NCBI GenBank assembly: GCA_964497135.1
Contig: CAZCDO010000001.1
Span: 239-64,238 of the forward strand
DNA: 64,000 bases
Direction of reading: 5' to 3'
From: an uncultured Verrucomicrobiota bacterium
Lineage (GTDB): Bacteria; Verrucomicrobiota; Kiritimatiellia; CAIKKV01; CAIJXV01
Shown: in pieces, positions 4,515 through 63,695 of the stretch
Layout of the letters: every line of letters begins with the position of its first letter
Numbering within the stretch: position 1 is the first letter of the stretch
The notes under the pieces: model-generated
The model's input: only the letters and a program-made list of their open reading frames with translations
Database searches by the model: none
Told to the model about the DNA's origin: nothing
Translations under genes and position numbers: made by a program

Positions 4515-4931
4515 GCAGGTCGACGAAGTGTAACCGCGTAAGTGTGGGACGAAGTGTTGGGAGAATGAGACACCAACAGCCAACATCCAATGGCCAACAG
4601 CCAACCCCCAACTTTTGGCCCTTCCTGATGTGGTCATTGAACGCTCAATGATTGACAGCGGAAGGGGAGCGACTAATGAGGCTTTGTAGAGGATTCGCGA
4701 TGTCGTAGGGCCTTCGCTCGTCGAAGGCCGGCTTGGAACAGGCGCGCCGACGAGCGGCGGCCCTACGGTTTGTGCGGGCATGCAACATCCGGGCTGGCAA
4801 CATCCCACTTGTGTTTTGGGTGCGGTTCGGGCACACTTTTTTTCGAAACCGATGATTTAACGGCATGGGGTGGGCCAGGGTTCCTGCCGCTGCAACCGCG
4901 ATTTTGGTGCTTTAAAATACAAGGAAAATCC

Positions 4932-9571: not shown

Positions 9572-9840
9572 CCCCTCACTCCGCAATCTCCGGGAGTCGG
9601 GCGGGGTGAGGGCACCCCCATACGTGTTAATCTAAGATCAAAAAACAACTCAAAGATTAAGCGATGCCGATTTTTCCCTCCCCCCGGCGAGGGGGAGGGT
9701 AGGGTGAGGGGGCTTGTATGTTTTCCAACCCCATTCGAATTTGTTGCACAACACCTTACAAATTATTCCGCGGATGATGCCCCCCCCTGATTATTAGGAT
9801 CCCCCTCACCCCTCCCTCCCCCGCGCCGGGGGGAGGGCGG
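9572..9840. repeat. three G/C-rich palindromic hairpin units (CCCTC(A)CCCC...GGGG(T)GAGGG-type) spaced ~110 bp apart
   Basis: Hairpin 1 is 9572-9612 (cccctcactccgc...gcggggtgaggg). Hairpin 2 is 9676-9699 (ccctccccccggcgagggggaggg). Hairpin 3 is ~9810-9840 (ccctccctcccccgcgccggggggagggcgg). Confidence 0.5.
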
Positions 9841-9921
9841 AACCCAACGCCGCCGCCAAAGTAAAGAGCGACAAACGGGAGCGTTTTCATAGTCTTAGCT
9901 TAATACGTATGAGGGCACCCC
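9608..9921. mobile_element. MITE-like non-autonomous element (~291 bp) with 17-bp imperfect terminal inverted repeats flanked by a perfect 11-bp direct repeat
   Basis: Left TIR ATACGTGTTAATCTAAG (9620-9636). Right TIR CTTAGCTTAATACGTAT (9894-9910), whose reverse complement ATACGTATTAAGCTAAG matches 15/17. Direct repeats GAGGGCACCCC at 9608-9618 and 9911-9921 (perfect). No ORF inside. The interior carries G/C hairpins 2 and 3. Confidence 0.5.
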
Positions 9922-9983: not shown

Positions 9984-10116
9984 CGACTAAGCGGTTGGAC
10001 TAAGCGTAACCGACAAAGTGTGGCGATGAAGTGTTGCTTCGCGCTATTCCAGGCCCATCCTCCAAACTCTTAGTCCCACACTTTGTCGGTTACGCTTAGT
10101 CGCCGCGCCTTAGTCA
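9984..10116. repeat. palindromic element built from GACTAAG heptamers with a perfect 26-bp inverted repeat core
   Basis: Left arm gactaagcggttggactaagcgtaaccgacaaagtgtgg (9984-10022). Right arm cttagtcccacactttgtcggttacgcttagtcgccgcgccttagtcag (10068-10116). Core GACTAAGCGTAACCGACAAAGTGTGG is perfectly inverted. GACTAAG occurs 5 times, at 9984+, 9997+, 10068-, 10094-, 10108-. A related half-copy lies at 4509-4560. Confidence 0.55.
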
Positions 10117-10348
10117 GATTGTCCATGCGGACCGGCTTGGCGCGCCGCGCGCGAAGACGGGCCGCATCTGCGGTTTTCCTCAGTGCCCCCGTGGCTCCGT
10201 GGTAAACCTGCCCCTGAGGATCCGGAGAACGAAGAGAATACCCCTCTGCAGGGATCCGTCTTCGTCCAAGCACTACGGCGGGACACGCGCGTCGGGCCAC
10301 CTCGGAAATCTACATCACCTGAATCGTTCCGGTTTACCGGCCTTCCAC

Positions 10349-10431
10349 CATGTCATAAAATGCATAGAAATATCAAAAAATGGACATGGCCAATAGCCGG
10401 CAAAAGAGGTATGATGATAATGGTATGGAAT
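10349..10431 (+). promoter_or_regulatory. conserved AT-rich upstream motif (copy A), candidate promoter/5' leader element of the giant gene
   Basis: catgtcataaaatgcatagaaatatcaaaaaatggacatggc (10349-10392) is ~88% identical to 50713-50755. Weaker similarity continues to ~10431. It lies ~90 nt upstream of ATG 10478. AAGGAG RBS at 10462-10467. Confidence 0.35.
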
Positions 10432-10477: not shown

Positions 10478-13400
10478 ATGAGACAGATCCGAGCCCTTTT
10501 CTTTGTCGTTCTCTTGTTTTGCGGCGGCCTGTCGGCCGGGGCCACGGACTTCAATTTGTGGGATAAGGCCATGCCGATCACCTTCAGCGGCTACAATCCG
10601 CCCGGCGGCGGAACGCTGACGAACTTCCCCGTCCTGGTGACGCTCAGAACGAACCTCGCAGGGTTCAGCTACACGGACTTCGCTTCGCCCACGAATGGCG
10701 CCGACCTTCGGTTTTCCGCCAGCAATCAGACGGACGAGCTGAACTTCGAAATCGAAAAGTGGGACACCAACGGCGCCTCTTATGTCTGGGTTCAAGTGCC
10801 CACCCTCTCCGGCACGAACACGAAGATCTGGGCCTACTGGGGCAATCCGCTCGCCCCTGTGGCGCCGAGTCAAACCAACGGGATGACCTGGTCCACCGAC
10901 TTCCGCGGTGTGTGGCACATGCAGGAGACCAATGTGGTGGACGCCACGACGAACGGGAATATCGGCGTCGGGAAAAATGGGATCATCACCACCAATACCG
11001 GTTTGGCCGGGAATGCGCTTTCACTCGTCGCGAATAGTTCCTCTACCAGCAGTAATTACGTAGACTTCGGCACCGGATTGGCGATGGGGACCGGCCATGC
11101 CACGTTGAGTATCTGGTTCAAGACGGCCACCAACGCGTTGCAAGCGGGAATCATCGGCAAGTCGGTATATGCCAGTGCCGAACGGTATTCCCTGAGTGGC
11201 GCCAAATCACCGAACATCATCAATGCGGTTTTTCAGTCCACGAACCCCCCCGCATTAACGGCGATGACGAACACGGCTTGGGCGAGTGGGTACTACGATA
11301 ACCAATGGCATCAGTTGACCGCCACGTTCAACCGGTCGGGGAATATGACCCTCTACGTGGATGGCGCGCAGAAGAGCGCCACCAACATCAGTCCGGCTTC
11401 CAGCGCCAATCTGAACAACCCGACTCGGTTTCTGATTGGTGCCTACGGGAACGCGACGGGGACCGGGCCGCAGACTGACTACTATTTTCCGGGTTCACTC
11501 GACGAAGGCCGCCTGATGCGGGTCCCGGCGTCCTCGAACTGGGTCTGGGCCGCCTGGATGAACGCCGCGTCGAATGGGGCGTTCAACGCTTACGGCGCCG
11601 CCGAGTCCCAAGGCCTGACGGTTCGGGTGTCGGGCGCGACAGGAGTGGGCGCGACCACCGCCACGCTGAACGGAACAGTGGCCAACAACGCCGGCGACCC
11701 GGCAACGGAGGCCTTCTTCTGCTGGGATTACACGAACAAGGGCACGGCGACGACGGCGGACTGGGCCCACGTGGAATACGCGGGGAACTCTTTTACCAAC
11801 GGCCAGACCTTCCTCACGGCGATCAACGGCCTGCTTTCGGGCAGTACCTATGTCTATCGCTGTTACGCGACCAACTCGACCGGGTCGGCCTGGTCGGGAG
11901 ACGCGACGAATTTTCGCACGCTGTATGTGCCGTCGGTGACCCTTAACAGTGCGGAGATTCTTAACCTGACAACGGTTTTGTTTCAGGGTGCGGTCACGGA
12001 AACCGGCGGCGAAACTCCGAATGTGTGGTTCTTGTACTGGCTGGACGGAGACACTTTGACCAACGCGGTCGACGTCGGAGCGGTGACGGGGGCCTGCAGT
12101 GCGCAGGTCACCGGCTTGATGACGGCTTCGAACTATGGGTGCCGGGTCATGGCGTCCAACTCGGCCGGCATCGCGTATTCCGGAACGACTGGCTTTCAGA
12201 TGGCCTGGCCCAAGGACTTCGGGTCGATCCCCATCACCTTGAGCGGGTATAACAGATCGGAAGTCCTGACGAATTTCCCGGTTCTGATTGCCCTCAGCAC
12301 GAATCTCGAAGGATTCAGTTATTCGGCCTTCTCTTCGCCTGCGAATGGCGCGGATCTGCGGTTCACGGCCAGCAATCAGCTTGACGCGATTAACTTCGAG
12401 ATCGAAAAATGGGACACCAACGGCACCTCCTATGTGTGGGTCCAAGTGCCTTTGCTCGCCGGCACGAACACGCGAGTCTGGGCGCTCTGGGGCAACCCGA
12501 GCGCCGGCGTACCGGCGTGTCAGACCAATGGGGCGACCTGGTCCAACGGTTATGTGGCGGTCTGGCATCTGGGCGAGTCAACCCCCACGAATCGCGACTC
12601 GACGATAAACCGTAATGACGGCACCAATTTCGGCAACACCACCGTCACTTCATTCGGACGAATCGGGTCAGCCAAGTCCTTCGACGGCGCGGGCGATGGC
12701 GTGGACTGCGGTACGCCCGCGAGTCTGGATGTCGCGCTACCGCGCACCATCTCAGCCTGGATCAAACCGGCGGTACTGAATGCCAAGGCCGGCGTGGTGG
12801 GGAAGGACTCGCAAAGGGATGGGACCGGTTACTCATACCTCATGTGTATCACCAACGGCGCTCTGATGGCTTACGATAACGTCACCTGGCGGGTGTCCTC
12901 GAACGCAAGCATTGCTATCGGGAACTGGTATCATGTGGTGTACGAAACACGCGGCGACGGCAGGATACAATACTATGTCAATGGGCAGAGCGCCGGAACC
13001 TCCATCTGGAATCATACGGATACCGCTGCCCATAACATCTACATCGGCAGTTGGTACAAGATGGCGACGACCTTTGATTTCAACGGTGTGATCGATGAGG
13101 TGAACCTGTCGAGTGTGGCGCGCGGATCCAACTGGGTCTGGGCAAGTTGGGCCAACCAAGTGACGAACTCCACGTTTACCGCCTACGGTTCGGCGCAAAA
13201 CGTGCTGGGCCTTCAATCCCTGCCCGCGACCGCCATCGGGGTTACGAATGCCACGTTAAACGGCATCCTGCTGAACGACCCTGTATCGCTCAACACCGAG
13301 ATCGCCTTCTGCTGGGGACCTGCCGACGCCGGTCAAGGCGCTACGAGCGATTGGCCGAATGTCGTCTCCCTGGGATCGGGATGGAGCCAGGGGGATTCAT

Positions 13401-16400
13401 TCAGCAACACACTCGCCAGCCTGCTCTCCGGCAGTACCTACGTCTATCGCTGTTACGCGACGAATGCGGGTGTGGTGGTGGGGCCGGTCTGGTCGGCCGC
13501 GCAGAGTTTCACCACCGTCTATCGTCCGTCCGTGACGAACCTGGGACCGGTGAACGGTTACGCCACCACCTGGTTGCGGGGGCAGGTGACGGATACCGGC
13601 CTCGAAACACCCTCTGTCTGGTTCTATTGGTGGGCGAATGGCAGTGCGACGACCAACATCGTTCCGATGGGACAGCCGGTGGGCGCCTTCTCGAACGCCG
13701 TCACCGGGCTCGCTCCCTATACGAATTATCAATACAGCATCCTGGCGTCCAATCTTGCGGGCGGAACGTGGTCGTCCGTCTCCAACTTCCAGACGCTCAT
13801 CACCTTTGCCGTCGTCACGAACGGAGGGGCTCAGCCGCTGACCCCGTCGATTGAATTCCTGCAGGGCGGGGTGACCAACACCGGCGGGGACACGCCGCAA
13901 GTCTGGTTCCTCTACTGGATCGCCGGTGGTGCCACGACCAATGCGTATGGGGTGGGCGCCCAGACCGGCGCGTGCAGCGCCACGGTCTCGGGTTTACTGC
14001 CCGGCTCCAACTACGTTTTCATGCTGATGGCGTCTAATCTGGCTGGCGCCGCCTACTCCGGAACCGCCGCATTCCAGACCACGTCGGAAACCATCTATTT
14101 CGTCGCCACCAACGGCAATAACAGTTGGGATGGTCTCACTTGGGGCACCGCCGTGAGCAACGTCGAAGTCGGCGTCCAACGCGCCAGTTTGTGTACCGGT
14201 ACCGTTGTCGTCGGTGACGGCTCCTTCGCCATCACCTCGTTCTGGGTTCAGATTGCCAGCGCCATCACCGTCCGCAGTCTCAATGGGCCGAACTCCACCA
14301 CTCTCAGGGCGGTCGGGACAAGCAGCACCTATCGGCGGGTCATGCTGGTGAGCAACGCGAATGCCTTCGTCTCCGGCTTTACGATGACGGACGGAAACCT
14401 GGGGAACAATAACGGGGAAGGGGGGGGCCCGGGGGGGCTGCGGCTCGTCGCGGGCACCGTGTCTAACTGCGTCATCCACGGCAATTTTGGGTCGGACAAT
14501 TCCGGCGGGATCGACATGAAAGGCGGGCTTCTCACCCACTGTACGGTATCGAGCAACCAGGCCATTCGGGCCAATAACCCGGGCTATGGCACCGGTGGAG
14601 GCATCACGCTGTCCGGTGGAACGGTTCAGTTCTGCGTCATCAGCAACAATTACGCCCGAAAGACGGGAAGCGGGATCCGGCAGACGGGCGGAACGGTGCG
14701 AGACAGCCTGATTGTCCGCAACTACCATGTTTACTCGGACATTTCCACAGGGGTCGGGGTGCATCAGAGTGGCGGCACGCTGGAGCGCTGCGAGATCCGT
14801 TCCAACGCCGGCGCGTGGTTTGCCGGAGGACTTTACCTCGATGGAAACGGCTTGGCGCGGAACTGTCTCTTCGCGAACAACACCGCCCTGTATGACGGCG
14901 GCGGTGTTTATATGACGACCGGCCGGTTGATCAACGCCACGCTTGCCGGGAACCGGGCGGATATCAATGGCCCTGGGCTTTACATGACGGCGGGCTGGGT
15001 GAGCAACTCGGTCGTTTACGGGAACGGCTCCACGCGCTACGTGAACCTCGCGAGCAATGTTTTCAAGAGCGGCGGCACGTTTGCCTACGGCTGCGCCACG
15101 CCCCTGGTCGCCGGCACGGACAACGTGGCGGTCGACCCGCTCTTCGTGAATGCCGCGGCAGGCGACTACCGGCTCTCCGTGGGATCGCCCTGCATCGATA
15201 CCGGCGCCAACCTGGCTGATGTCACGAACGATCTCCTGCGCGCCGCCCGGCCTCAGGACGGCAATGGGGATGGTTCCTCGGTGACCGATCGGGGCGCCTA
15301 TGAAGCCGGACCGTTGAGCGGCGGGCCTTTCACCTGTAGTTTCGATGTCGCGCCGGAGGAAGGCTATCTCTCGGTGAACGCGACCTTCACCGCCTTTGTC
15401 GGAGGTCCGAACACCAACATCACCTGGTACGGCTGGGACTTTGAGAACGACGGGATCATTGATGACGCGGGGGCGGACAAGCGCGTGACGACCCACACGT
15501 TCGGGGTGGGGTACTACGACGTGTCCCTCACGGTCAGCAACTCGGACAGCGCGGCCACCAGCGTTGTGCGCCTGGCCTGCGTTCGCGTGGCGCCGTCGAC
15601 CAATTATGTGTGGAAGTCCGGCTCGCACACGGCGCCGTTCGATACTTGGGCCAAGGCCGCCCGGGATATCCAGAGTGCGGTGGATGTGGCCTGGTCCTCG
15701 GATTCCACGCCGGCGACGGTGCTGGTCACGAATGGCGTTTACACCAACACCAGCCAAATCGCCATCACGCGGCCCCTGATCGTCCGCAGTGTGAATGGTC
15801 CGACGGTTACCACCGTAAATCTCGGTAACGTGGACGGTCGGCGCGCCTTCCAAGTTGCGAACTCGAATGCCTGGCTGGAGGGATTCACCGCTACGGGCGG
15901 CAAGATCGGAAACAATTCAGATGGCGGCGCGGGCATTCTGCTGGACCGCGGGACGGTGACGAATTGCATCGCCACCGGGTGTTCCTCCATCAGGTGCGGG
16001 GCCGGGATATGGGTCAAGAGTGGGCTGCTGGTCAAGTGCCGGATCTTCGGGAACACGACGTTGGCGCAAAACAGCGAGGCTCCGGGCTTGTACCTTACGG
16101 GTGGCACGGCGCGGGACTGCGATAGCGTCAGCAACAATGTTCCCGGCAATAATGTTATCGGGGGTGGGGTTTACATGACCGGTGGCACGTTGGAACGCTG
16201 CCGCGTCAGCTGGAATACCGCTGGAAACGTCAGCCGCGCGGGCGGGACCGGCGGCGGCATCTTCATGACCGGCGGCACGGCGGTTGACAGCTACATCATC
16301 GGCAACACGCAGTATGGCAACGGGGGCGGGGTCTACATGACCGGTGGCACGCTCCGCAACTGCCTGGTGGTGAGCAATACCTCGCCCGCGAACAATGGAG

Positions 16401-18265
16401 GCGGCATTTATATGGCCGGCTCCGCCGCGCAGGTGGAGAACTGCACCGTGGCCGATAACAGCGCCCTCCTCAATGGCAATGGTCTTTACCAGGCATCTGG
16501 CGGGGTGACCAACACCGTCATTTTCTTTAACACCGCCGTGCCCAACGTTTACCAGACCGGCGGCAGTATTGGGTTCTCGAGCATGGATCCGGTGGTGACG
16601 GGTGCGGGCAATACGAATAATTTGAGTGCGGATCCGTTCTTTGTCGATGGTTATCGCCTCGGGCCGGGTTCGCTTTGTATTGACGGCGGAACCAACCTTC
16701 CCTGGTCGGAGACGGGCAAGGACCTGGCGGGCAGTAACCGGGTGGTGAACGATATTGTGGATATGGGCGCCTTCGAGAAGCCCGCCGCGGGCGCGGGTGA
16801 CCCGCTCGGATGCAATTTCGATGCGGTTCCGGTCTCGGGATCCCTCACGCTGACGCCCACCTTCACCGCGCTCTTGTCGGGCGGGAACACGAACACCGAG
16901 TGGTTTCGGTGGGACTACGGCGATGGCGTGACCGAACAGAGCGCCACTCTTGGCACGACGTCGCACACCTATGGTCCCGGCTGGTACACCGTGACCCTCA
17001 CCGTTCGGAATACCGACAGCGCCGAGACGTCAGCCGTCCGCACCGCCTACATCAAGGTGGCTCCGGCGACGAACTATGTGGCCAAGGGCGCCTCGAATGT
17101 TCCGCCCTACCTGACGTGGGCGACGGCTGCCTCCAACGTGGAAGACGCGGTTGACGCCGCGCCCCTGACCGTCTTGGTTTCCAACGGAACATTCAACAGT
17201 ACGAGAACCGTTATGGTGGAACGGGATATGACGATTCGGAGCCTGAATGGGCCGGCCGCTACGGTCATCAATGCCGGCAATGTGTCCTTCCGGCGCGTAT
17301 TCCAGGTCTCTGCCACGAATGCCTGGATCGAGGGCTTCACCCTCTATGGGGGGTCGTACGGAAGCTACTCCGATGGCGGGGCGGGGGTTCTGCTGGAGAA
17401 TGGGACGGTGACGAACTGCTGGATCACCTCCTGTGTGAACTACCAAAACGGCGCGGGAGCCTGGGTCAAGAACGGACTGCTCGTCGGGTGCCGGGTGTAT
17501 GGCAACAACTCCGGTGCGAATCAGGGGGAATCGGTCGGCGTCTATCTGACGGGGGGAACGGTGCGTGACTGTGTGATCGTCAGCAACGGCTTCACGAGTA
17601 GCGGGCACATGCTCGGGGCCGGGGTGTACCAGACCAGCGGTTATTTGGAGCGTTGCCGGGTGGAGGGCAATATGGGTGGAAATGTCGGCAATACCAACAG
17701 CGCCGGCGGCGGCATCTATCTGGAGGGCGGACTCGCGACGGACTGCATTATCGCCAAAAACACGACCTACGGTAACGGGGGGGGCGTCTATCTCGTCGGC
17801 GGTGTGTTACGCAATTCCCTGGTGCTGACCAATCGGGCGGCCCTGCACAACGCCGGTGGCCTTTATGTGGGGGCGGGGCGCGCCGAGAACTGCACGGTGG
17901 TGAGCAATACGGCCCTAGGCGTCGGGAATGGACTCTATCTGGCGGGGGGCGGAGTGACCAATACCATCGTGTACTTCAACGGGGCGATCAATGTTCACCG
18001 GATCGGCGGCAGTATCGCCTACTCGTGTATGACACCGCTGGTGACCGGCGCCGAAAACACGGATGCCGATCCCCAGTTCAAGGCCGCCGCGTTGGGCGAC
18101 TACCATTTGGCCGGCGACTCCCCTTGCATCAACGCCGGAACCAATCTGTCATGGTCAGCTTCCGGAACCGATTTGGACGGTCTGAAGCGGATGTATAGCG
18201 GGCGGGTGGATATGGGGGTTTTTGAATCGCTCCCCACCGCCGGTACGATTTTTACCATTCGATAA
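10478..18265 (+). CDS. giant secreted modular surface protein (2595 aa): [DUF2341 - LamG/concanavalin-like - FN3-like x2] x2, then [right-handed beta-helix - PKD] x2
   Basis: Signal peptide MRQIRALFFVVLLFCGGLSAGA. DUF2341-type motif (GADLRF.ASNQ.D..NFEIEKWDTNG.SYVWVQVP) occurs twice, at aa ~55-130 and ~600-680. LamG-like modules (GSLDEGRL / IDEVNLS). YVYRCYATN FN3-like repeats. Gly-rich beta-helix turns (GGGVYMTGGTL). Two PKD domains (WYGWDFENDG...VSLTVSN / WFRWDYGDG...VTLTVRN). Confidence 0.75.
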   Translation: MRQIRALFFVVLLFCGGLSAGATDFNLWDKAMPITFSGYNPPGGGTLTNFPVLVTLRTNLAGFSYTDFASPTNGADLRFSASNQTDELNFEIEKWDTNGASYVWVQVPTLSGTNTKIWAYWGNPLAPVAPSQTNGMTWSTDFRGVWHMQETNVVDATTNGNIGVGKNGIITTNTGLAGNALSLVANSSSTSSNYVDFGTGLAMGTGHATLSIWFKTATNALQAGIIGKSVYASAERYSLSGAKSPNIINAVFQSTNPPALTAMTNTAWASGYYDNQWHQLTATFNRSGNMTLYVDGAQKSATNISPASSANLNNPTRFLIGAYGNATGTGPQTDYYFPGSLDEGRLMRVPASSNWVWAAWMNAASNGAFNAYGAAESQGLTVRVSGATGVGATTATLNGTVANNAGDPATEAFFCWDYTNKGTATTADWAHVEYAGNSFTNGQTFLTAINGLLSGSTYVYRCYATNSTGSAWSGDATNFRTLYVPSVTLNSAEILNLTTVLFQGAVTETGGETPNVWFLYWLDGDTLTNAVDVGAVTGACSAQVTGLMTASNYGCRVMASNSAGIAYSGTTGFQMAWPKDFGSIPITLSGYNRSEVLTNFPVLIALSTNLEGFSYSAFSSPANGADLRFTASNQLDAINFEIEKWDTNGTSYVWVQVPLLAGTNTRVWALWGNPSAGVPACQTNGATWSNGYVAVWHLGESTPTNRDSTINRNDGTNFGNTTVTSFGRIGSAKSFDGAGDGVDCGTPASLDVALPRTISAWIKPAVLNAKAGVVGKDSQRDGTGYSYLMCITNGALMAYDNVTWRVSSNASIAIGNWYHVVYETRGDGRIQYYVNGQSAGTSIWNHTDTAAHNIYIGSWYKMATTFDFNGVIDEVNLSSVARGSNWVWASWANQVTNSTFTAYGSAQNVLGLQSLPATAIGVTNATLNGILLNDPVSLNTEIAFCWGPADAGQGATSDWPNVVSLGSGWSQGDSFSNTLASLLSGSTYVYRCYATNAGVVVGPVWSAAQSFTTVYRPSVTNLGPVNGYATTWLRGQVTDTGLETPSVWFYWWANGSATTNIVPMGQPVGAFSNAVTGLAPYTNYQYSILASNLAGGTWSSVSNFQTLITFAVVTNGGAQPLTPSIEFLQGGVTNTGGDTPQVWFLYWIAGGATTNAYGVGAQTGACSATVSGLLPGSNYVFMLMASNLAGAAYSGTAAFQTTSETIYFVATNGNNSWDGLTWGTAVSNVEVGVQRASLCTGTVVVGDGSFAITSFWVQIASAITVRSLNGPNSTTLRAVGTSSTYRRVMLVSNANAFVSGFTMTDGNLGNNNGEGGGPGGLRLVAGTVSNCVIHGNFGSDNSGGIDMKGGLLTHCTVSSNQAIRANNPGYGTGGGITLSGGTVQFCVISNNYARKTGSGIRQTGGTVRDSLIVRNYHVYSDISTGVGVHQSGGTLERCEIRSNAGAWFAGGLYLDGNGLARNCLFANNTALYDGGGVYMTTGRLINATLAGNRADINGPGLYMTAGWVSNSVVYGNGSTRYVNLASNVFKSGGTFAYGCATPLVAGTDNVAVDPLFVNAAAGDYRLSVGSPCIDTGANLADVTNDLLRAARPQDGNGDGSSVTDRGAYEAGPLSGGPFTCSFDVAPEEGYLSVNATFTAFVGGPNTNITWYGWDFENDGIIDDAGADKRVTTHTFGVGYYDVSLTVSNSDSAATSVVRLACVRVAPSTNYVWKSGSHTAPFDTWAKAARDIQSAVDVAWSSDSTPATVLVTNGVYTNTSQIAITRPLIVRSVNGPTVTTVNLGNVDGRRAFQVANSNAWLEGFTATGGKIGNNSDGGAGILLDRGTVTNCIATGCSSIRCGAGIWVKSGLLVKCRIFGNTTLAQNSEAPGLYLTGGTARDCDSVSNNVPGNNVIGGGVYMTGGTLERCRVSWNTAGNVSRAGGTGGGIFMTGGTAVDSYIIGNTQYGNGGGVYMTGGTLRNCLVVSNTSPANNGGGIYMAGSAAQVENCTVADNSALLNGNGLYQASGGVTNTVIFFNTAVPNVYQTGGSIGFSSMDPVVTGAGNTNNLSADPFFVDGYRLGPGSLCIDGGTNLPWSETGKDLAGSNRVVNDIVDMGAFEKPAAGAGDPLGCNFDAVPVSGSLTLTPTFTALLSGGNTNTEWFRWDYGDGVTEQSATLGTTSHTYGPGWYTVTLTVRNTDSAETSAVRTAYIKVAPATNYVAKGASNVPPYLTWATAASNVEDAVDAAPLTVLVSNGTFNSTRTVMVERDMTIRSLNGPAATVINAGNVSFRRVFQVSATNAWIEGFTLYGGSYGSYSDGGAGVLLENGTVTNCWITSCVNYQNGAGAWVKNGLLVGCRVYGNNSGANQGESVGVYLTGGTVRDCVIVSNGFTSSGHMLGAGVYQTSGYLERCRVEGNMGGNVGNTNSAGGGIYLEGGLATDCIIAKNTTYGNGGGVYLVGGVLRNSLVLTNRAALHNAGGLYVGAGRAENCTVVSNTALGVGNGLYLAGGGVTNTIVYFNGAINVHRIGGSIAYSCMTPLVTGAENTDADPQFKAAALGDYHLAGDSPCINAGTNLSWSASGTDLDGLKRMYSGRVDMGVFESLPTAGTIFTIR

Positions 18266-20907: not shown

Positions 20908-21300
20908 TTATCCCCGCCAGAGCAGGAGGCCGGCCACGTTGGTGAAATGAGAGTCACCGGTCACCAGAAAGGATCCACTTTCGGTCGCGTGGGCGGCGAG
21001 CCAGACATCGTTGATGGGGATCGGAGTGCCGGCTTTTCTAAGCCGGTGTTTGATGGTGCCGAAGATATCCGAGGTCTCCTGGGTGGCGGTCAGAATGCGG
21101 ACGGTGGGGCGCCGCAGAAAGTCCTCCAACTGCTCTCGGTTTTTCCGCTCTCTATCCCCGCCTTTAAAGCCGGCATACAGTTCGCCCAAAACAAAGACGG
21201 ACATAAAAACGGTATCGGCGCGGCCCAGCACGTCCAGCACCTCCCTGTCACCGCGGAGCAGGCTCATATAGGCATTGGTATCCAGAAGAACCTTTTTCAT
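20908..21300 (-). CDS. vapC: type II toxin-antitoxin system toxin, PIN-domain ribonuclease VapC
   Basis: MKKVLLDTNAYMSLL... with conserved acidic PIN residues (D at position 7, E ~40, D ~95 with LVTGDSHF). 130 aa. ATG (21300-21298) overlaps the TGA of the upstream antitoxin (ATGA). The ORF track extends to a TTG at 21306. Confidence 0.8.
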   Translation of the reverse strand: MKKVLLDTNAYMSLLRGDREVLDVLGRADTVFMSVFVLGELYAGFKGGDRERKNREQLEDFLRRPTVRILTATQETSDIFGTIKHRLRKAGTPIPINDVWLAAHATESGSFLVTGDSHFTNVAGLLLWRG

Positions 21301-21599
21301 TTCCAATCCTCCGGGTCGATGCGTTGGGTGTCAGCCACCCGGGCCTCAAACTCCCGTGCATCTTTCTCTTTCCAGGTTCCACAGAAACCGGCAAAATCAT
21401 CTCGATGCGGTGGAACAGCCGGCACCTTGATCCCCAATCCCTCCGCCAGGATCTGTTTTATGAGTTCATTCATGCTCAGGGATTGTTCCCGGGCGCGACG
21501 CTTGATCTGTGCCGCCAACTGCTCATCCAGGGCGTGGATCGTAAGTGATTTCACAATGACCTCTTTATGAACCGTTAATTGATTCATGTTGCGAACCAT
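21297..21599 (-). CDS. ribbon-helix-helix antitoxin (VapB/FitA-like)
   Basis: ~100 aa. RHH pattern: beta-strand SLTIHAL, helix DEQLAAQIKRRAREQ, helix SMNELIKQILAEGL. Stop TGA overlaps the vapC start. It appears as the C-terminal tail of a spurious 956-aa antisense ORF. Alternative start at 21587 (MNQLTV). Confidence 0.65.
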   Translation of the reverse strand: MVRNMNQLTVHKEVIVKSLTIHALDEQLAAQIKRRAREQSLSMNELIKQILAEGLGIKVPAVPPHRDDFAGFCGTWKEKDAREFEARVADTQRIDPEDWK

Positions 21600-21611
21600 A
21601 AAATAGAAAAT

Positions 21612-32330: not shown

Positions 32331-33124
32331 AGAAGGACCCGATGGAACCCATTGACCCCCGCCGTTTTCAAGCGCTCTTCAATCCGCCCGCCGGTCAGGG
32401 AGCCCCCGTTGTGATCCGCGGTGTCGACATCCGCAAGGTGTATCGCCGGGGCACCCAGGAGACACACGCCTTGCGCGGCGCTACGCTGGACGTCTACCGC
32501 GGCGAATACCTGTCGATCATGGGCCCCTCCGGATCGGGAAAAACGACGTTGTTCAACGCGATTGGCGCCCTGGTCAAGCCGACCTCGGGCAAGGTCTATA
32601 TCGATCAGGTCGATATTGCGCAACTCGACACCGAGGAATTGGCGTGGCTTCGATGCCGGAAGATCGGCTACGTGTTCCAGACCTACAATCTGATCCAGGT
32701 GATGACCTGTTTGGAAAATGTGACCCTGCCGATGAGTTTTGCCGGCCTGAGCGGCGAGGAGGCGCGCGAAAAAGGCGTCCGGATTTTGAAAATGGTGGGG
32801 CTCAGCCATCGCGCCCTGCACAAGCCGGCGGAACTGTCGGGCGGTCAGCAGCAGCGCGTCGCGATCGCGCGGGCGCTGGCCAATTCGCCGGCCATCATTC
32901 TCGCCGATGAACCCACGGCGAATCTGGACCAGACGACTGGGCAGGAGATCATCGACCTGTTCACCCGTTTGCAGCGGGACCTGGGCGTGACCATTATTTC
33001 CGCCACGCACGATCTCAAGATGCTTCAGGCTTCAAACCGCATCCTGTGGATCGAGGACGGCTGCATTGTGAAATCGGCCCGCCCCGAGGAGATCAATTTC
33101 GCCACCGATGAATTCGGGCATTGA
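32327..33124 (+). CDS. ABC transporter ATP-binding protein (MacB/LolD-type ATPase), copy 1
   Basis: Walker A GPSGSGKTT. Signature LSGGQQQRVAIARAL. Walker B ILADEPT. ATG overlaps upstream TGA (ATGA). Confidence 0.85.
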   Translation: MKKDPMEPIDPRRFQALFNPPAGQGAPVVIRGVDIRKVYRRGTQETHALRGATLDVYRGEYLSIMGPSGSGKTTLFNAIGALVKPTSGKVYIDQVDIAQLDTEELAWLRCRKIGYVFQTYNLIQVMTCLENVTLPMSFAGLSGEEAREKGVRILKMVGLSHRALHKPAELSGGQQQRVAIARALANSPAIILADEPTANLDQTTGQEIIDLFTRLQRDLGVTIISATHDLKMLQASNRILWIEDGCIVKSARPEEINFATDEFGH

Positions 33125-33134
33125 GAGATCAATC

Positions 33135-33869
33135 ATGGATACGATCATTCGAACCGAGAACGTGAAAAAACGTTATGTGACCGGCGACCAGGAATTGTGG
33201 GCGTTGAAGGGGATCGATCTCGATATCGGCCGCGGCGAATTTCTCTCCATCATGGGACCTTCCGGATCGGGCAAGTCGACGCTGTTCAACCAGATCGGCG
33301 CGCTCGACGTGCCCACCGAGGGGCGCGTGCTGTTCGAGGGGCAGTCCGTGTTCGACATGACCGAAAAACAGCAGGCGTGGTTCCGGTGCAACCGCATCGG
33401 GTACATCTTCCAGACGTTCAACCTGATCCAGGTGATGACCGCGTTGCAGAACGTGACCCTGCCCATGGTCTTCCAGGGGACCCCCCGGGAGGATGCCGTC
33501 CGGCGCGGCACGGCCATTCTGGAACGCGTGGGACTCGGCCATCGCCTGCATAACAAACCGTTCGAGCTCTCCGGCGGCCAGCAACAGCGCGTGGCTGTGG
33601 CCCGCGCGCTGGCCAATACGCCCAGTGTGGTCCTCGCCGATGAACCCACGGGTAACTTGGACACGAAGACCGGCGCCGAGATCATCGAACTGCTCAAGGA
33701 GCTGAACCGCGCGGAAGGGGTGACCGTGATTTGTTCCACCCACGATCCGAAGATGCTGCGCAGTTCCGATCGGATTTGCTGGATGCTCGACGGGCGGCTC
33801 GACAAAATCATCCAGCAGGCCGATTTTTCGTTGGCGGCCATGAAGCAGGACACCCAGGGCCGTGAGTGA
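33135..33869 (+). CDS. ABC transporter ATP-binding protein (MacB/LolD-type ATPase), copy 2 (paralog)
   Basis: Walker A GPSGSGKST. Signature LSGGQQQRVAVARAL. Walker B VLADEPT. ~50-60% identical to copy 1 by eye. Confidence 0.85.
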   Translation: MDTIIRTENVKKRYVTGDQELWALKGIDLDIGRGEFLSIMGPSGSGKSTLFNQIGALDVPTEGRVLFEGQSVFDMTEKQQAWFRCNRIGYIFQTFNLIQVMTALQNVTLPMVFQGTPREDAVRRGTAILERVGLGHRLHNKPFELSGGQQQRVAVARALANTPSVVLADEPTGNLDTKTGAEIIELLKELNRAEGVTVICSTHDPKMLRSSDRICWMLDGRLDKIIQQADFSLAAMKQDTQGRE

Positions 33870-34281
33870 TCCCGTCTCCAGACCGGTGGCGGATGGGACG
33901 GCGGGGCCGGTCGCGGCCGACCTGGCCCAGTTGTTAAACGGGGTGCCCTATCTGAATCCGGCCGTTGAAACCCTCCACGATCCCCAGCGGGGATGTGCGC
34001 TCTCGTGGAAGAGTGAGTCGGGGAACCGGCGCGGCTGGCGGGCGCTCCTGATGGGGCCGGTGCGGCGCCGGCGACTGGAACTCGACGACCTGGGTCGCCG
34101 TACGGTTGAACTGTGCGACGGCCGCCGCAGGGTGGGGGAAATTGCCGCCCAGCTCGCCGCCGAACACCAGGTTGAACTCGGGGTCATGCAACGCGCCACC
34201 CTGGCCTTTCTCGCGGAACTCGTCCGTCGCAACGCCGCCCAGATTGTGGATGATTCGAAGGAGATTCGGACCGGGTCATAA
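33862..34281 (+). CDS. PqqD-family (RiPP-recognition-element-like) peptide-binding/chaperone protein
   Basis: 139-aa ORF, GTG start overlapping the ATPase stop. PqqD-like core RRRLELDDLGRRTVELCDGRRRVGEIAAQLAAEHQV...ATLAFLAELVRRN (winged-helix wHTH with a 3-strand sheet pattern). Assignment by eye. Confidence 0.5.
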   Translation: MSDPVSRPVADGTAGPVAADLAQLLNGVPYLNPAVETLHDPQRGCALSWKSESGNRRGWRALLMGPVRRRRLELDDLGRRTVELCDGRRRVGEIAAQLAAEHQVELGVMQRATLAFLAELVRRNAAQIVDDSKEIRTGS

Positions 34282-34414
34282 AGTGACAATAGATATCAGA
34301 ATTTGGTCATTGAGTGTTCGAATGCTTTGCGGGATTATTATGAATTTCCGCTTTTGAGTGGGCGCTGCGAATGGCCGCCGGCGATCCATCACCGCAAACA
34401 AAGAACGGAATGCC

Positions 34415-47582: not shown

Positions 47583-48524
47583 TTATCGCTTTGGGGGCTT
47601 GGGTTTTCCAAGCGGCGAGGGGGGGGCTGGTTTTTTGGGCGTTTCCGAGGGGCCGAATGTCAGCGGCATGATCCCGTTTCGCCGGAACTGGGTCGGCGTA
47701 CAGTGAAGGACGCGCTGGAACGTACGCATGAAGCTGGCGGACGTTTCGTAGCCTAGTCGGCTGGCGATTTCCTTGACAAACAGGGATTCGGTTTTCAGTA
47801 AACTGCAGGCGGCCAGCATCCGGGTGTTCTGGATGTGATCGTGGGGTGAAACCCCGGTCTGCTGTTTCACAATCCGCGAAAGATGCTCAGCGGAAACGGA
47901 GAGGCGGGCGGCGATTTCGCCGACCGAAATGCGTTTCCCGGTCGCCAGTTTGATGATGTCATGGAAACGCCGGATCAGGGTATGATCGGCCTGTTTTTCC
48001 GGGATGGGGGTCTTGCTGTCGACCAAGGCATCCAGCAGGTCCGTGGTCAGGCGGGTGCTCTCGCGCAAGGAGAGGATGCAGCCGACTTCATGATAGACGT
48101 GAAAGGATAGCAGTTTCTGGATGATGACGTGGTCGAGGGGCAGGTCGTAGATGGCGCCGAAGCGGCGGATGAGGTCGCGTGCCATCGCATGGGCGGCGGA
48201 TCCGAGGATATCGATGAAGATAAAGTGCCAGGGATCGCGGGTCTGATGGGGGTAGTAGTAGGTGATCGTGGGATCATGGGCTTCGCATAAAAAACCCCGG
48301 CCGGCCCGCAATTGATGCAGGCCCCGATCGTCCTTGAATAGGCCGCTGCCGGCCAGCGTGTATTGAAAAATCACGCGCGGGCGATCGCGCCGCCACCGTC
48401 CCTCGACGCGATAGGCCCGGGTATTTCTCGTTTCCTTGCCGATACAGTCGGGGCGGGGAAAGTGAGGTAATCCATCGAAGGTGTGGATATAGAGAAAGAA
48501 ATCGCGCATATCAGATTCCGTCAC
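47583..48524 (-). CDS. AraC-family transcriptional regulator
   Basis: C-terminal AraC HTH (SVGEIAARLSVSAEHLSRIVKQQTGVSPHDHIQNTRMLAACSLLKTESLFVKEIASRLGYETSASFMRTFQRVLHCTPTQFRR). Convergent with the upstream operon and divergent from the gene at 48633. Confidence 0.8.
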   Translation of the reverse strand: MTESDMRDFFLYIHTFDGLPHFPRPDCIGKETRNTRAYRVEGRWRRDRPRVIFQYTLAGSGLFKDDRGLHQLRAGRGFLCEAHDPTITYYYPHQTRDPWHFIFIDILGSAAHAMARDLIRRFGAIYDLPLDHVIIQKLLSFHVYHEVGCILSLRESTRLTTDLLDALVDSKTPIPEKQADHTLIRRFHDIIKLATGKRISVGEIAARLSVSAEHLSRIVKQQTGVSPHDHIQNTRMLAACSLLKTESLFVKEIASRLGYETSASFMRTFQRVLHCTPTQFRRNGIMPLTFGPSETPKKPAPPSPLGKPKPPKR

Positions 48525-48632
48525 TTAATGTCACGTAGTGCCATTCCTTGAAGGTTGCGTTTTCGACGGGTAAAAACTACTCTATTTGCTTACGGATCGC
48601 AACTGTGTAAACAACGGGACGGAGAACCCCTC

Positions 48633-50687: not shown

Positions 50688-50712
50688 TGAGCCGATCATG
50701 CGGTATGCCTGC

Positions 50713-50783
50713 CATGTCAAAAAATGCACTGAAATATCAAAAAAGGGACATAGCGAGAGGTTTGTAATGAGTGTATCATAGAC
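50713..50783 (+). promoter_or_regulatory. conserved AT-rich motif (copy B) paralogous to 10349-10431
   Basis: catgtcaaaaaatgcactgaaatatcaaaaaagggacatagc, ~88% identical to copy A over ~44 nt. Lies upstream of a decayed ORF fragment. Confidence 0.3.
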
Positions 50784-50807: not shown

Positions 50808-51020
50808 GGAGGTGGCCTTTACCTGATCAGCTCGGCCTATTCTGCGAACGGGACCACGTGGGTGACGAATTTTACCAGTACGAACGTTTCGGCTGAAAAA
50901 ACGGTTTATGTCGGATTGTCCCTGGGCGTGCCCGAGACGCAATTGATGTACTGCTATTTCGACAACCTCGAACTGACCGCGTTGCCCCAGCCGGCCGGGT
51001 CCCTATTTACGGTGTGGTAA
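50808..51020 (+). pseudogene. start-less ORF fragment encoding a jelly-roll/LamG-like C-terminal segment (gene remnant)
   Basis: Frame reads ...LISSAYSANGTTWVTNFTSTNVSAEKTVYVGLSLGVPETQLMYCYFDNLELTALPQPAGSLFTVW* with no plausible start (in-frame stop at 50805). Protein-like composition. Confidence 0.35.
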
Positions 51021-51098
51021 CGGGGCGGCAGGGGTGGCCAAGGGTCCTGAACACCGAACGCTGAACCCGGGGCGCTTGAACCGCCGCCTGGAGACAAT

Positions 51099-51773
51099 AT
51101 GTTCACAACACTGGCGATGAAAGAGGTCTTGTTCCCGGACTCGTTTCTGTGGGGTGCCGGCGGAGCCGGGCACCAGAACGAATTTTTTATTCATGCCATC
51201 AAGACGGGTGAATTGGTGCTTCCGTACACCGACGCCGAGTCGTCGGATGAGGTCAAGGGCAGCCTCGACTATTGGGGTGTAAATTATTACACGCGACACA
51301 TGGCCAGCGCGCGGACGCTGAATTTCAGCGCACCGCGTTTCCCGTTCGACCGCGTCAGCATGATTGACGAGAGCATGTACCTCGAGGAGTTCTATCCCGA
51401 TGGCTTCGTTCAGCATTTGCCGCGATTCACGGACCATCCGATTTACATTTGCGAAAACGGTTGTGCTTGCGATGACGACCGCTTGCGGATAGTGTACCTC
51501 GCGCGTCACCTCAGCGCCTTGCGCGAAGCCATGAAGATGGGGGCGGATGTGCGCGGCTACATTCATTGGTCGCTGATGGATAATTACGAATGGGGGTCGT
51601 TTAAGCCGCGGTTCGGCTTGATTCACGTCGATTTTGAGACCTTCCGGCGGACCCTCAAACCGAGCGCTCATTTTTATCGTGAGATCATTGAGAACCACGG
51701 TATAACAGGTTCTGTACTCGACCGGTATGTCCGACCCCTGTCGGATATCAAAGGCTATCCTCCAAAGGGTTGA
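51099..51773 (+). pseudogene. glycoside hydrolase family 1 (beta-glucosidase-type) remnant with ~200-aa internal deletion
   Basis: 224 aa versus ~450 expected. Retains GH1 N-terminus (FPDSFLWGAGGAGHQNE), the YICENG nucleophile region and the C-terminal HWSLMDNYEW...FGLIHVDF motif. It lacks the central region, including the acid/base (T-L-N-E-P) segment. Confidence 0.5.
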
Positions 51774-63580: not shown

Positions 63581-63695
63581 CGATAGACGTCTCTCCTGAA
63601 ACGAATATTGTGGAACTTGCCGTCCCAATCATCAAGGCGCGATTTATGATATTTACATCCAATTCATGATCCAGTTCTACTTTTTGTCGGGGCCG

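What the first reader, a model, noticed from the sequence alone, without database searches (positions are those of the whole stretch)
10349..10431. ~45-80 nt AT-rich motif present twice in the window, upstream of genes
catgtcataaaatgcatagaaatatcaaaaaatggacatggc (10349-10392) and catgtcaaaaaatgcactgaaatatcaaaaaagggacatagc (50713-50755) are ~88% identical. Weaker similarity continues (gaggtatgatg / gaggtttgtaatg). Copy A is ~90 nt upstream of the giant gene, and copy B is upstream of a decayed ORF. Weaker candidates lie at 34289-34315 (atagatatcagaatttggtcat, upstream of the 1388-aa gene) and 21596-21625 (cataaaatagaaaatatgaacc, at the operon start). This may be a lineage-specific promoter/UP element or regulator operator for envelope/CAZyme genes, or a small repeat family.
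Basis: seen in the sequence. Interest (0 to 1): 0.55.

Follow-up and report, generated by a model that had tools for sequence, protein, structure and literature searches.

The report
Conserved regulator site in glycan-gene promoters
The repeated AT-rich motif is a real, conserved control element that sits at a fixed distance upstream of ordinary promoters for giant surface-protein and sugar-degrading genes in an uncultured Kiritimatiellia bacterium. It is most likely the docking site of a transcription activator, so it is a useful but ordinary kind of finding.

Summary
Copies at 10348-10390 and 50712-50754 are 38/43 identical, where none is expected by chance. They belong to a larger family.

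- **In the window:** four strong sites (A 10349, C 34272, B 50713, and a missed one at 63673 on the minus strand) plus a weaker one at 48507.
- **Elsewhere:** six more sites in three other Kiritimatiellia metagenome-assembled genomes (MAGs).
- **Alignment:** ten sites align without a single gap over 85 nt. Invariant bases fall in a two-unit, 20-nt direct repeat (TCA-nAAAn-TG ... TATCA), in a -35 hexamer (T-G) and in a -10 hexamer (A...T) with 17-nt spacing.
- **Position:** all sites are intergenic, point toward the downstream gene, and lie 20-100 nt before its start.
- **Target genes:** DUF2341 giant proteins, a malectin-like protein, and glycosidase or oxidoreductase operons.
- **Copy B:** it now precedes a deletion scar.

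The best reading is a sigma-70-type promoter with an abutting tandem-repeat activator operator. The candidate regulator is the AraC-family gene at 47583-48509, because the upstream regions of its orthologues carry the motif in five species. No transcription start sites or binding data exist.

Overall this is a new motif of a known kind, of modest interest.

The parts
10349..10386 (+). Copy A: upstream element. Four boxes phased 10 nt apart: TGTCA 10351-55, TGCAT 10361-65, TATCA 10371-75, TGGACA 10381-86. Equivalent to two 20-nt direct-repeat units.
   Evidence: found by model R1, built from non-window sites, with E=0.018
10387..10415 (+). Copy A: inferred sigma-70-type core promoter, TGGCCA (10387-92), 17 nt, TATGAT (10410-15). 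It lies 62 nt before the ATG at 10478.
   Evidence: promoter scan; in-register invariants T47 G49 A71 T75
10478..18265 (+). Gene driven by A: 2595-aa secreted giant protein (DUF2341, Laminin_G_3, PKD, beta-helix repeats), followed by an 875-aa FAD_oxidored gene.
34272..34309 (+). Copy C: upstream element (GGTCA 34274-78, TGACA, TATCA 34294-98, TGGTCA 34304-09). It overlaps the stop codon of the PqqD-like gene 33862-34281.
   Evidence: PWM from non-window sites scores 30.5 against a shuffle maximum of 13.6; R1 E=3.2e-6
34310..34338 (+). Copy C: inferred core promoter, TTGAGT, 17 nt, GATTAT. The downstream gene starts at ATG 34415 (1369-aa secreted protein, no Pfam hit) and is followed by GH20, DUF4874/DUF4832 and other genes.
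48507..48583 (+). Weaker element (CATATCAgattCCGTCActtaATGTCA, 48507-48538). It overlaps the AraC start codon (CAT 48507-09). The conserved promoter TTGCGT (48555-60), 17 nt, TACTCT (48578-83) lies one helical turn further from the element than in the main family. It faces the 684-aa gene (ATG 48633).
   Evidence: (score 15.9, above the shuffle maximum of 13.6)
47583..48509 (-). Candidate cognate regulator: 308-aa AraC-family protein (AraC_binding plus HTH_18). It is the only transcription factor found in the window's Pfam survey.
50713..50750 (+). Copy B: upstream element (TGTCA 50715-19, TGCAC, TATCA 50735-39, GGGACA 50745-50).
   Evidence: identical in strain contigs L002 and L003
50751..50779 (+). 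Copy B: inferred core promoter, TAGCGA, 17 nt, TATCAT (weak -35).
50814..51773 (+). Deletion scar downstream of B. It holds a remnant of the C-terminus of a malectin-like gene (50814-51020) and an internally deleted GH1 gene (51099-51773, Pfam positions 272-452 only). Intact 791-aa and 648-aa genes follow.
63636..63673 (-).
   Evidence: PWM from non-window sites scores 23.8; R1 E=0.24
63607..63635 (-). Copy I10: inferred core promoter, TTGATG (63635-30), 17 nt, CACAAT (63612-07). It lies 26 nt before ATG 63580 of the operon 61652-63580 (melibiase-like), 59006-61624 (Big_2/beta-helix) and 55972-58992 (FAD_oxidored).

Best explanation
Each copy is the upstream half of a promoter. A roughly 38-nt protein-binding element occupies about -74 to -36. 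It consists of two 20-nt direct-repeat units of the form R-TCA-nAAAn-(T/C)G, so contact boxes recur every 10 nt on one face of the helix.

The element abuts a weak-to-moderate sigma-70-type -35 hexamer (TtGnnn), followed by a 17-nt spacer and a -10 hexamer (tAnnnT). The likely mechanism is that a sugar-responsive activator binds the tandem repeat as a dimer and recruits or positions RNA polymerase at the adjacent -35. This would switch on operons for giant DUF2341 surface proteins and glycan-degrading enzymes.

The most likely regulator is an AraC/XylS-family protein, and the best candidate is the one encoded at 47583-48509. Its own divergent control region carries a variant of the element across its start codon. 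That arrangement would allow autoregulation, as at araC-araBAD.

Copy B is the surviving promoter of a locus whose first gene or genes were deleted.

**Shown:** the motif family, its rigid register with -35/-10-like hexamers, its intergenic and oriented placement, and its recurrence upstream of homologous genes in other MAGs.

**Inferred:** the transcription start sites, that a protein binds, that it activates, and which protein it is.
For: 1. **Ungapped alignment.** Ten sites from four MAGs align without gaps over 85 nt. The invariant columns are C14 A18 A19 G22 A32 T33 C34 A35 (element), T47 G49 (-35) and A71 T75 (-10) (nine sites). The -35 and -10 invariants are the positions best conserved in sigma-70 promoters (established knowledge).
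2. **Independent recoveries.**
   - A PWM of the element alone found L014:11877, upstream of a malectin gene, and L140:5088, upstream of a 598-aa gene. Both carry TTGnnn-17-(T/G)AnnnT in exact register, although the PWM did not include those columns.
   - A sequence model built only from non-window sites retrieves C (E=3e-6), A (E=0.018) and I10 (E=0.24) as the three best hits in the window.
   - A pattern scan of 596 Gb returned one Kiritimatiellia hit. It lies directly upstream of P0003, the third-best homologue of the giant protein.
3. **Placement.** All strong sites are intergenic, co-oriented with the downstream gene, and 20-100 nt before its start. No coding hit has a comparable score.
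4. **Sharp edges of A/B similarity.** Identity is 88% in the core and near random outside it. This suggests constraint rather than recent duplication.
5. **Direct repeat.** TCA-N5-TG recurs with a 20-nt period, and the proximal unit ends at the -35. From memory, this is the geometry of araI1-I2, XylS at Pm and RhaS.
6. **AraC link.**
   - AraC is the only regulator in the window.
   - Its orthologue sits next to the motif-bearing giant gene in L001.
   - Element-like sequences score 14.5-25.3 in the AraC-divergent region in all five orthologous loci examined. The shuffle maximum, obtained with the PWM built from non-window sites, was 13.6.
   - In three of those loci a conserved promoter lies about one helical turn further away.
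Against: - There is no TSS, expression or binding data. The -35/-10 assignment is by consensus only.
- Copies A and B have poor -35 hexamers (TGGCCA, TAGCGA). This fits activator dependence but also weakens the promoter call.
- Each 20-nt unit can also be read as an imperfect palindrome (GTCA-N5-TGAC in C and L014b). Two dimers of another TF family are therefore possible.
- The repeat period is 20 nt, not the 21 nt typical of AraC.
- Several motif-bearing loci have no AraC gene within 10 kb (L014, L015, L140).
- The AraC-upstream similarity partly overlaps the gene's 5'UTR and start codon. The five loci are also homologous, so they are not independent.
- The whole genome was not available, so the regulon size and the share of promoters carrying the element are unknown.
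- The motif was found in few GTDB Kiritimatiellia genomes with the strict pattern (1 hit).
Confidence: 0.6

Rival explanations
1. The architecture is the same, but the protein is a different kind of regulator. It could be an OmpR/PhoB-type response regulator binding 10-nt-phased TGTCA-like boxes (pho-box-like), or a LysR-, CRP- or other dimer-of-dimers family binding two palindromic sub-sites. It could act as a repressor or dual regulator rather than an activator.
For: - In A and B there are four boxes at 10-nt phase: TGTCA / TGCAT / TATCA / TGGACA.
- TGTCA resembles the pho-box core CTGTCAT (from memory).
- GTCA-N5-TGAC palindromes occur in C and L014b.
- Motif-bearing loci L014, L015 and L140 have no AraC gene nearby.
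Against: - No response-regulator, LysR or CRP gene appears in the window or in the related loci.
- The box 2 and box 4 sequences are poorly conserved, so a 20-nt unit fits better than a 10-nt unit.
- The period is 10/20 nt rather than the 11 nt of pho boxes.
- The weak -35 hexamers argue for activation rather than repression.
Confidence: 0.2
2. The element is contacted by RNA polymerase itself. It would be a lineage-specific UP-like element (alpha-CTD) or intrinsically curved phased A-tract DNA that boosts strong promoters, with no dedicated regulator.
For: - It lies at about -40 to -75, is AT-rich in a 61% GC genome, and has A-tracts phased 10 nt apart in A and B.
- It sits in rigid register with the -35.
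- It is present at about half of the promoter-bearing intergenic regions in the window and precedes diverse operons.
- Similar architectures turned up in high-GC contigs of other phyla (L050 Victivallales, L021 Capsulimonas).
Against: - The invariant positions include C and G (C14, G22, C34) and a specific TATCA. Only one A-tract (A17-19) is conserved, and the other A-tracts of A and B are replaced by T-rich or mixed sequence elsewhere.
- This pattern is unlike the degenerate A/T consensus of UP elements (from memory: AAAWWTWTTTTNNNAAA).
- Most other intergenic regions in L015 and L140 lack the element.
- In the AraC-divergent promoters it occurs one helical turn further out, which is more typical of a bound factor.
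Confidence: 0.14
3. The copies are relics of sequence duplication, either paralogous 5' regions copied along with giant-gene duplication or a small mobile repeat (MITE). They would have no regulatory role of their own.
For: - A and B are far more alike (88%) than either is to other family members.
- A's gene shares a 65%-identical N-terminal 576 aa with P0015. The neighbours of P0015 (malectin, GH1, 788 aa) match the locus downstream of B.
- Other repeat elements lie close to A.
Against: - Similarity stops abruptly at the element's edges and is near random in the leader and upstream.
- The same invariant bases and the same register recur upstream of non-homologous genes (malectin, 598-aa, 1369-aa and melibiase operons) and in four MAGs.
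- There are no terminal inverted repeats or target duplications shared by the copies. The orientation is always toward the gene, and there is never a copy in coding DNA.
Confidence: 0.04
4. The element acts as RNA, either as a 5'-leader structure or riboswitch, or as a small RNA transcribed from an upstream promoter.
For: - A and B have a 7-bp inverted repeat (CCATGTC...GACATGG).
- The promoter scan also found TTTACC-17-TAAAAT overlapping the start of copy A.
Against: - There are no Rfam hits in the window.
- Folding z-scores run from -1.1 to +0.15, and the four window copies fold differently.
- The inverted repeat is absent in C, I10 and the copies from other MAGs.
- Conservation is by sequence at fixed columns, with no covariation.
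Confidence: 0.02

Closest known systems
AraC/XylS-family activator sites adjoining the -35 (araI1-araI2 at pBAD, XylS sites at Pm, RhaS at rhaBAD). Positions and repeat structure are recalled from the literature and were not checked here.
   Same: - Two tandem direct-repeat half-sites of about 17-20 bp spanning roughly -75 to -35.
- The proximal unit abuts or overlaps a weak -35.
- Two contact boxes per unit, about one helical turn apart and separated by A/T-rich DNA.
- The target genes are sugar-utilisation operons.
- The regulator gene is divergently transcribed, with a site in its own control region (as in araC-araBAD).
- An AraC-family gene with a cupin sugar-binding domain lies in the locus.
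   Different: - The half-site sequence (RTCA-nAAAn-TG) matches none of the known consensus sequences I can recall.
- The period is 20 nt rather than 21 nt.
- Binding by the AraC homologue is untested.
- Several motif-bearing operons are not next to an AraC gene, which implies a dispersed regulon.
- The host is an uncultured Kiritimatiellia.
Pho box / OmpR-PhoB family direct-repeat operators
   Same: - Direct repeats containing TGTCA-like cores followed by A/T-rich spacers, phased about one helical turn apart.
- They lie immediately upstream of, or replace, a poor -35.
   Different: - The period here is 10/20 nt rather than 11 nt.
- Only alternate boxes are well conserved.
- A recognisable -35 is retained.
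- No response-regulator gene is seen nearby.
UP element of strong sigma-70 promoters (rrnB P1 type)
   Same: It is an AT-rich block between about -40 and -60/-75, in fixed register with the -35, and precedes probably highly expressed genes.
   Different: - It has base-specific invariant C and G positions and a TATCA core.
- It extends to about -74.
- It is not present at all promoters.
- It also occurs displaced by one helical turn.

Membership tests
Sigma-70-type promoter | -35 hexamer resembling TTGACA and -10 hexamer resembling TATAAT, separated by 17+/-1 nt | tested here: met
   In the ungapped alignment of 10 sites, columns 47-52 read T(t/g/a)Gnnn and columns 70-75 read (t/g/c)AnnnT, with exactly 17 nt between them. 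T47, G49, A71 and T75 are invariant. The scan tool independently called TGGCCA-17-TATGAT at copy A.
Sigma-70-type promoter | Transcription start about 7 nt downstream of the -10 | not testable with these tools
   No transcript data are available. The positions are consistent, because the -10 lies 5-90 nt before the start codon at every site.
AraC/XylS-type activator operator | Two tandem direct-repeat half-sites about two helical turns apart | tested here: met
   TCA(13-15)/TCA(33-35) and (T/C)G(21-22)/(T/C)G(41-42) recur with a 20-nt period. The first unit is invariant. The second unit has TCA invariant and YG in 6 of 10 sites. The expected period is 21 nt, but 20 nt is observed.
AraC/XylS-type activator operator | Promoter-proximal half-site abuts or overlaps the -35 | tested here: met
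   Unit 2 ends at column 46 and the -35 begins at column 47. This depends on the inferred -35.
AraC/XylS-type activator operator | Cognate AraC-family protein binds the site | not testable with these tools
   Only indirect evidence exists. An AraC gene lies in the window and in L001 next to motif-bearing operons. Element-like sequence is present in the AraC-divergent region of 5 orthologous loci.
AraC/XylS-type activator operator | Regulator gene co-localised with every target | tested here: not met
   No AraC homologue is found within the loci L014, L015, L140 or L024 (phmmer). This is not a strict requirement for dispersed regulons.
UP element | Degenerate A/T-rich sequence at -40 to -60 without base-specific G/C requirements | tested here: not met
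   Invariant C14, G22 and C34 and the TATCA core are present. The A-tracts other than A17-19 are not conserved.
UP element | Bound by the RNAP alpha-CTD | not testable with these tools
   This needs biochemistry.
MITE / REP-type dispersed repeat | Terminal inverted repeats, target-site duplication, and insertion without regard to gene orientation | tested here: not met
   The inverted ends exist only in A and B. All copies are co-oriented with the downstream genes and intergenic, and similarity ends at the element's edges.
Known RNA families (Rfam 15) | Match to a covariance model, or a conserved stable fold | tested here: not met
   There are no hits at gathering thresholds in the whole window. 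Folding z-scores run from -1.1 to +0.15.

The most novel reading that the evidence does not exclude
The element may not be the operator of a local regulator. It may instead be a base-specific extended promoter element, or the site of a very broadly conserved global factor, that defines a class of glycan- and surface-protein promoters across PVC bacteria and beyond. The same architecture, (A)TCAnAAAnTG-N8-TATCA-N11-TTGnnn-N17-TAnnnT, appeared in high-GC contigs from Victivallales (upstream of a GH4 gene) and Capsulimonas (upstream of a prepilin-like gene, with its own ATCACAAAT direct repeat 20 nt apart).
Probability: 0.1. Interest if true: 0.6.

Novelty: new member of a known kind. Interest (0 to 1): 0.3.

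Why it matters
Kiritimatiellia are uncultured or barely cultured glycan degraders with no genetics, and I found no paper on their promoters or regulons.

A defined promoter architecture with a 12-position invariant signature gives a practical handle.
- It predicts transcription units and start sites in MAGs.
- It links giant DUF2341 surface proteins to glycosidase and oxidoreductase operons as a probable co-regulated set.
- It nominates one AraC-family regulator for testing.
- It could supply inducible promoter parts.

It also shows that copy B marks a recent gene loss, in which the promoter was retained and the genes were deleted. None of this overturns current understanding. It is the expected kind of regulation, newly described for this lineage.

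Tried and rejected
- **Strict pattern scans.** A 23-base consensus of A, B and C found nothing in genome contigs or metagenome contigs. The source genome is not in those collections. It is a JGI/NCBI MAG contig of 71.7 kb.
- **Exact look-up of the giant protein.** It failed twice, so the rest of the genome could not be scanned.
- **Looser 18-base pattern including -35/-10.** It gave 38 genome hits and 84 metagenome hits. Nearly all are chance matches in AT-rich genomes, and one is a clear true positive, L024.
- **First alignment of the L001 site.** I initially aligned it to box 3 of copy A. The PWM and regex showed it aligns to box 1.
- **Other promoter types.** By eye, sigma-54 (GG/GC spacing is off by 2), ECF and Bacteroidetes-type (-33/-7) promoters do not fit the sequences seen.
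- **RNA structure and Rfam.** Both were negative. There are no tRNAs.
- **Conservation of copy C in L014.** This could not be assessed. The 1380-aa protein there is only 34% identical, so it is a paralogue, and no element precedes it.
- **P0126 locus.** It had no DNA on file.
- **AraC genes near out-of-lineage hits.** None were found.
- **Literature.** Searches found nothing on Kiritimatiellia promoters or DUF2341 regulation.

Full report
**Observation**

The two sequences are present as described. The repeat finder groups 10348-10390 and 50712-50754 at 88% identity (38/43), with 34271-34313 as a 67% third copy (family D7). The A/B consensus matches nowhere else in the window, and there were no matches in 100 shuffles.

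The window has about 61% GC, so these 35%-GC islands stand out. Rfam and tRNA scans of the whole window are empty.

**Context**

Homologue names place the window in Kiritimatiellia. The contig is a 71.7-kb MAG contig that is also seen in JGI metagenome 3300059473.

The genes form a glycan-utilisation landscape:
- heparinase II/III-like, GH109, GH20, DUF4874/DUF4832, GDSL, GH1 and melibiase-like enzymes;
- several PF12831 FAD oxidoreductases;
- beta-helix proteins;
- a 2595-aa DUF2341/LamG/PKD giant protein;
- one transcription factor, an AraC-family protein on the minus strand at 47583-48509.

Copy A lies 87 nt before the giant gene's ATG. Copy C overlaps the stop codon of a PqqD-like gene and lies about 100 nt before ATG 34415 of a secreted 1369-aa protein. 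Copy B lies in a 411-nt gap after a 684-aa gene.

**Anatomy**

Read without gaps, A, B and C continue in register to a -10-like hexamer exactly 23 nt after the last box: TATGAT, TATCAT and GATTAT. A -35-like hexamer lies 17 nt upstream of it: TGGCCA, TAGCGA and TTGAGT. The consensus scan independently called TGGCCA-17-TATGAT at copy A.

The element itself is four boxes phased every 10 nt (TGTCA / TGCAT / TATCA / TGGACA in A). Equivalently, it is two 20-nt direct-repeat units, TCA-nAAAn-TG.

A fourth copy on the minus strand (63636-63673), upstream of the melibiase-like operon, has the same boxes and TTGATG-17-CACAAT in the same register.

**Related sequences**

The giant protein has no close orthologue. 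The best full-length hit is 45% identical. Even so, the upstream regions of its homologues carry the element in the same register:
- P0002 in L001;
- P0015 in L014, whose N-terminal 576 aa are 65% identical to the giant;
- P0023 in L015.

A PWM of the 32-nt element found two further sites that were not used to build it. One is L014:11877, before a malectin-like gene. The other is L140:5088, before a 598-aa gene. Both show TTGnnn-17-(T/G)AnnnT at the predicted offset, although those columns were not in the PWM.

A pattern scan of 596 Gb of species-representative genomes gave 38 hits, almost all in AT-rich genomes. The single Kiritimatiellia hit, L024, lies directly upstream of a DUF2341 gene. 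That gene is P0003, the third-best homologue of the giant protein.

MAFFT aligns all ten sites over 85 columns without a gap. The invariant columns are C14, A18, A19, G22, A32-T33-C34-A35, T47, G49, A71 and T75.

**Statistics**

A PWM built only from the five sites outside the window scores the window sites as follows: C 30.5, I10 23.8, A 21.5, the 48507 site 15.9 and B 12.0. The maximum in 20 locally shuffled windows was 13.6.

A calibrated sequence-only model from the same five sites ranks C (E=3e-6), A (E=0.018) and I10 (E=0.24) as the top three hits in the window. B on its own is marginal under these models, but it is secured by its 88% identity to A.

No coding-region hit approaches these scores in about 160 kb of non-redundant Kiritimatiellia DNA.

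**What copy B is**

In L014 the gene order is P0015 (giant), malectin-like 981 aa, intact GH1 (430 aa), then a 788-aa gene. In the window, B is followed by three things:
- a 68-codon remnant, 64% identical to residues 915-975 of that malectin-like protein (E=9e-26);
- a GH1 gene that retains only Pfam positions 272-452;
- a 791-aa gene.

So B is a promoter left in place after deletion of the gene or genes it drove. It may still feed the downstream genes. The same scar is present in strain contigs L002 and L003, where the B element is identical.

The unusually high A/B identity probably reflects paralogy of the two giant-gene 5' regions. However, similarity falls to background immediately outside the element, which argues for constraint.

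**Mechanism**

The element has three relevant properties:
- a rigid register with the core promoter;
- base-specific invariant positions, including C and G;
- a two-unit direct repeat that ends where the -35 begins.

Together these fit a transcription activator bound next to RNA polymerase. From memory, this is the geometry of AraC at araI1-I2, XylS at Pm and RhaS. The weak -35 hexamers in A and B fit activator dependence.

The AraC-family gene in the window is the only regulator present. Its orthologue (67% identical) lies immediately after the motif-bearing giant gene in L001.

The AraC-divergent intergenic region carries an element-like sequence that starts at the AraC start codon in every orthologous locus examined. 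The PWM scores are 15.9 for the window, 16.3 for L001, 14.5 for L007-L013 and 25.3 for L138. L139 has a 21.3 site facing the 684-aa orthologue.

In the window, L001 and L007, a conserved TTGCGn-17-TAnnnT promoter follows 25-26 nt after box 3 instead of 16 nt. That is one helical turn further away, read from the sequences printed. The arrangement would allow autoregulation together with control of the divergent gene.

I put about 0.8 on 'protein-bound promoter element', about 0.4 on 'AraC/XylS-type activator', and less on this particular AraC.

**Rivals**

- **A different TF family.** This cannot be excluded from sequence alone. The candidates are a pho-box-like response regulator or two palindromic sub-sites, since GTCA-N5-TGAC is visible in C and L014b.
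- **A UP-element or curved-DNA reading.** It is weakened by the invariant G/C positions, by loss of all but one A-tract outside A and B, and by absence of the element from most other intergenic regions of L015 and L140.
- **A passive duplication or MITE reading.** It is contradicted by the sharp edges, the uniform orientation, and recurrence before non-homologous genes.
- **An RNA role.** It is unsupported. Folding z-scores run from -1.1 to +0.15 with inconsistent folds, and there are no Rfam hits.

**Limits**

- The source genome could not be retrieved, so regulon size is unknown.
- The strict 18-base pattern found the motif in only one GTDB Kiritimatiellia genome.
- Conservation of copy C could not be tested, because the nearest homologue is a 34% paralogue.
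- All start sites are inferred.
- A few high-GC hits outside the lineage share the architecture and an ATCACAAAtTG variant: L050 from Victivallales before a GH4 gene, L021 from Capsulimonas before a prepilin-like gene, and also L087 and L099. I could not decide whether these are chance or a wider phenomenon.

**Verdict**

This is a real cis-regulatory motif family that, as far as I could find, has not been described before. It is of a familiar kind: an activator operator fused to a sigma-70-type promoter. It is a new member of a known kind, of modest interest.

Noticed in passing
window 9676-9837 (flanks 9618-9640 and 9893-9915): A G/C-rich 37-nt inverted repeat, 92% complementary, with arms at 9676-9712 and 9801-9837. 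It sits inside a second, outer inverted pair, CATACGTGTTAATCTAAGA and its near-complement at about 9895-9915. It looks like a small foldback or MITE-like insertion in the 1.2-kb gap upstream of copy A.
   Followed up: partly
window 9998-10101, and 4539-4558: A perfect 26-bp palindrome (GACTAAGCGTAACCGACAAAGTGTGG ... complement) with a 52-nt loop. Its loop-proximal motif, AAGTGTGG..GAAGTGTTG, recurs with a 1-nt deletion in the intergenic region at about 4539-4558. This may be a second small repeat family.
   Followed up: partly
window 50814-51773: A gene-decay scar. It holds a 68-codon remnant of a malectin-like gene and a GH1 gene with an internal deletion of about 230 codons. The N-terminal FPDSFLWG motif and the C-terminal 180 residues are retained. 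Strain contigs L002 and L003 show the same gene layout (52-aa remnant ORF, 224-aa GH1).
   Followed up: yes
window 10616-10898 vs 12266-12548, and 15907-16618 vs 17359-18064: The giant gene contains large internal duplications. The DUF2341/LamG module is duplicated at 78% DNA identity. The PKD plus beta-helix module is duplicated at 71-80% identity with a spacing of about 1450 nt.
   Followed up: no
window 20908-21586 (minus strand): A PIN-domain toxin (20908-21306) with a short upstream ORF (MNQLTVHKEVIVKSLTIHALDEQLAAQIKRRA...) that looks like its antitoxin.
   Followed up: partly
window 32486-32963 vs 33219-33696: Two adjacent ABC-ATPase genes are 72-77% identical at the DNA level with a 733-nt offset (repeat finder families D3, D5 and D6). 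This is a tandem gene duplication in the FtsX/ABC/PqqD-like cluster upstream of copy C.
   Followed up: no
L050:5467-5529(-), L021:897-959(+), L087, L099: High-GC contigs from other phyla (Victivallales, Capsulimonas and unassigned metagenome contigs) match the element plus promoter pattern and share an extra ATCACAAA(T/G)TG signature. In L021 the signature repeats 20 nt apart. The downstream genes are a GH4 glycosidase and a prepilin-like protein. I could not tell whether this is chance or a wider motif.
   Followed up: partly
window 18235-18265 and 50990-51020: The giant protein ends ...SLPTAGTIFTIR and the malectin remnant ends ...LPQPAGSLFTVW. The shared short C-terminal P-x-x-AG-(S/T)-(I/L)-F-T-(I/V)-x tail may be a sorting signal.
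   Followed up: no
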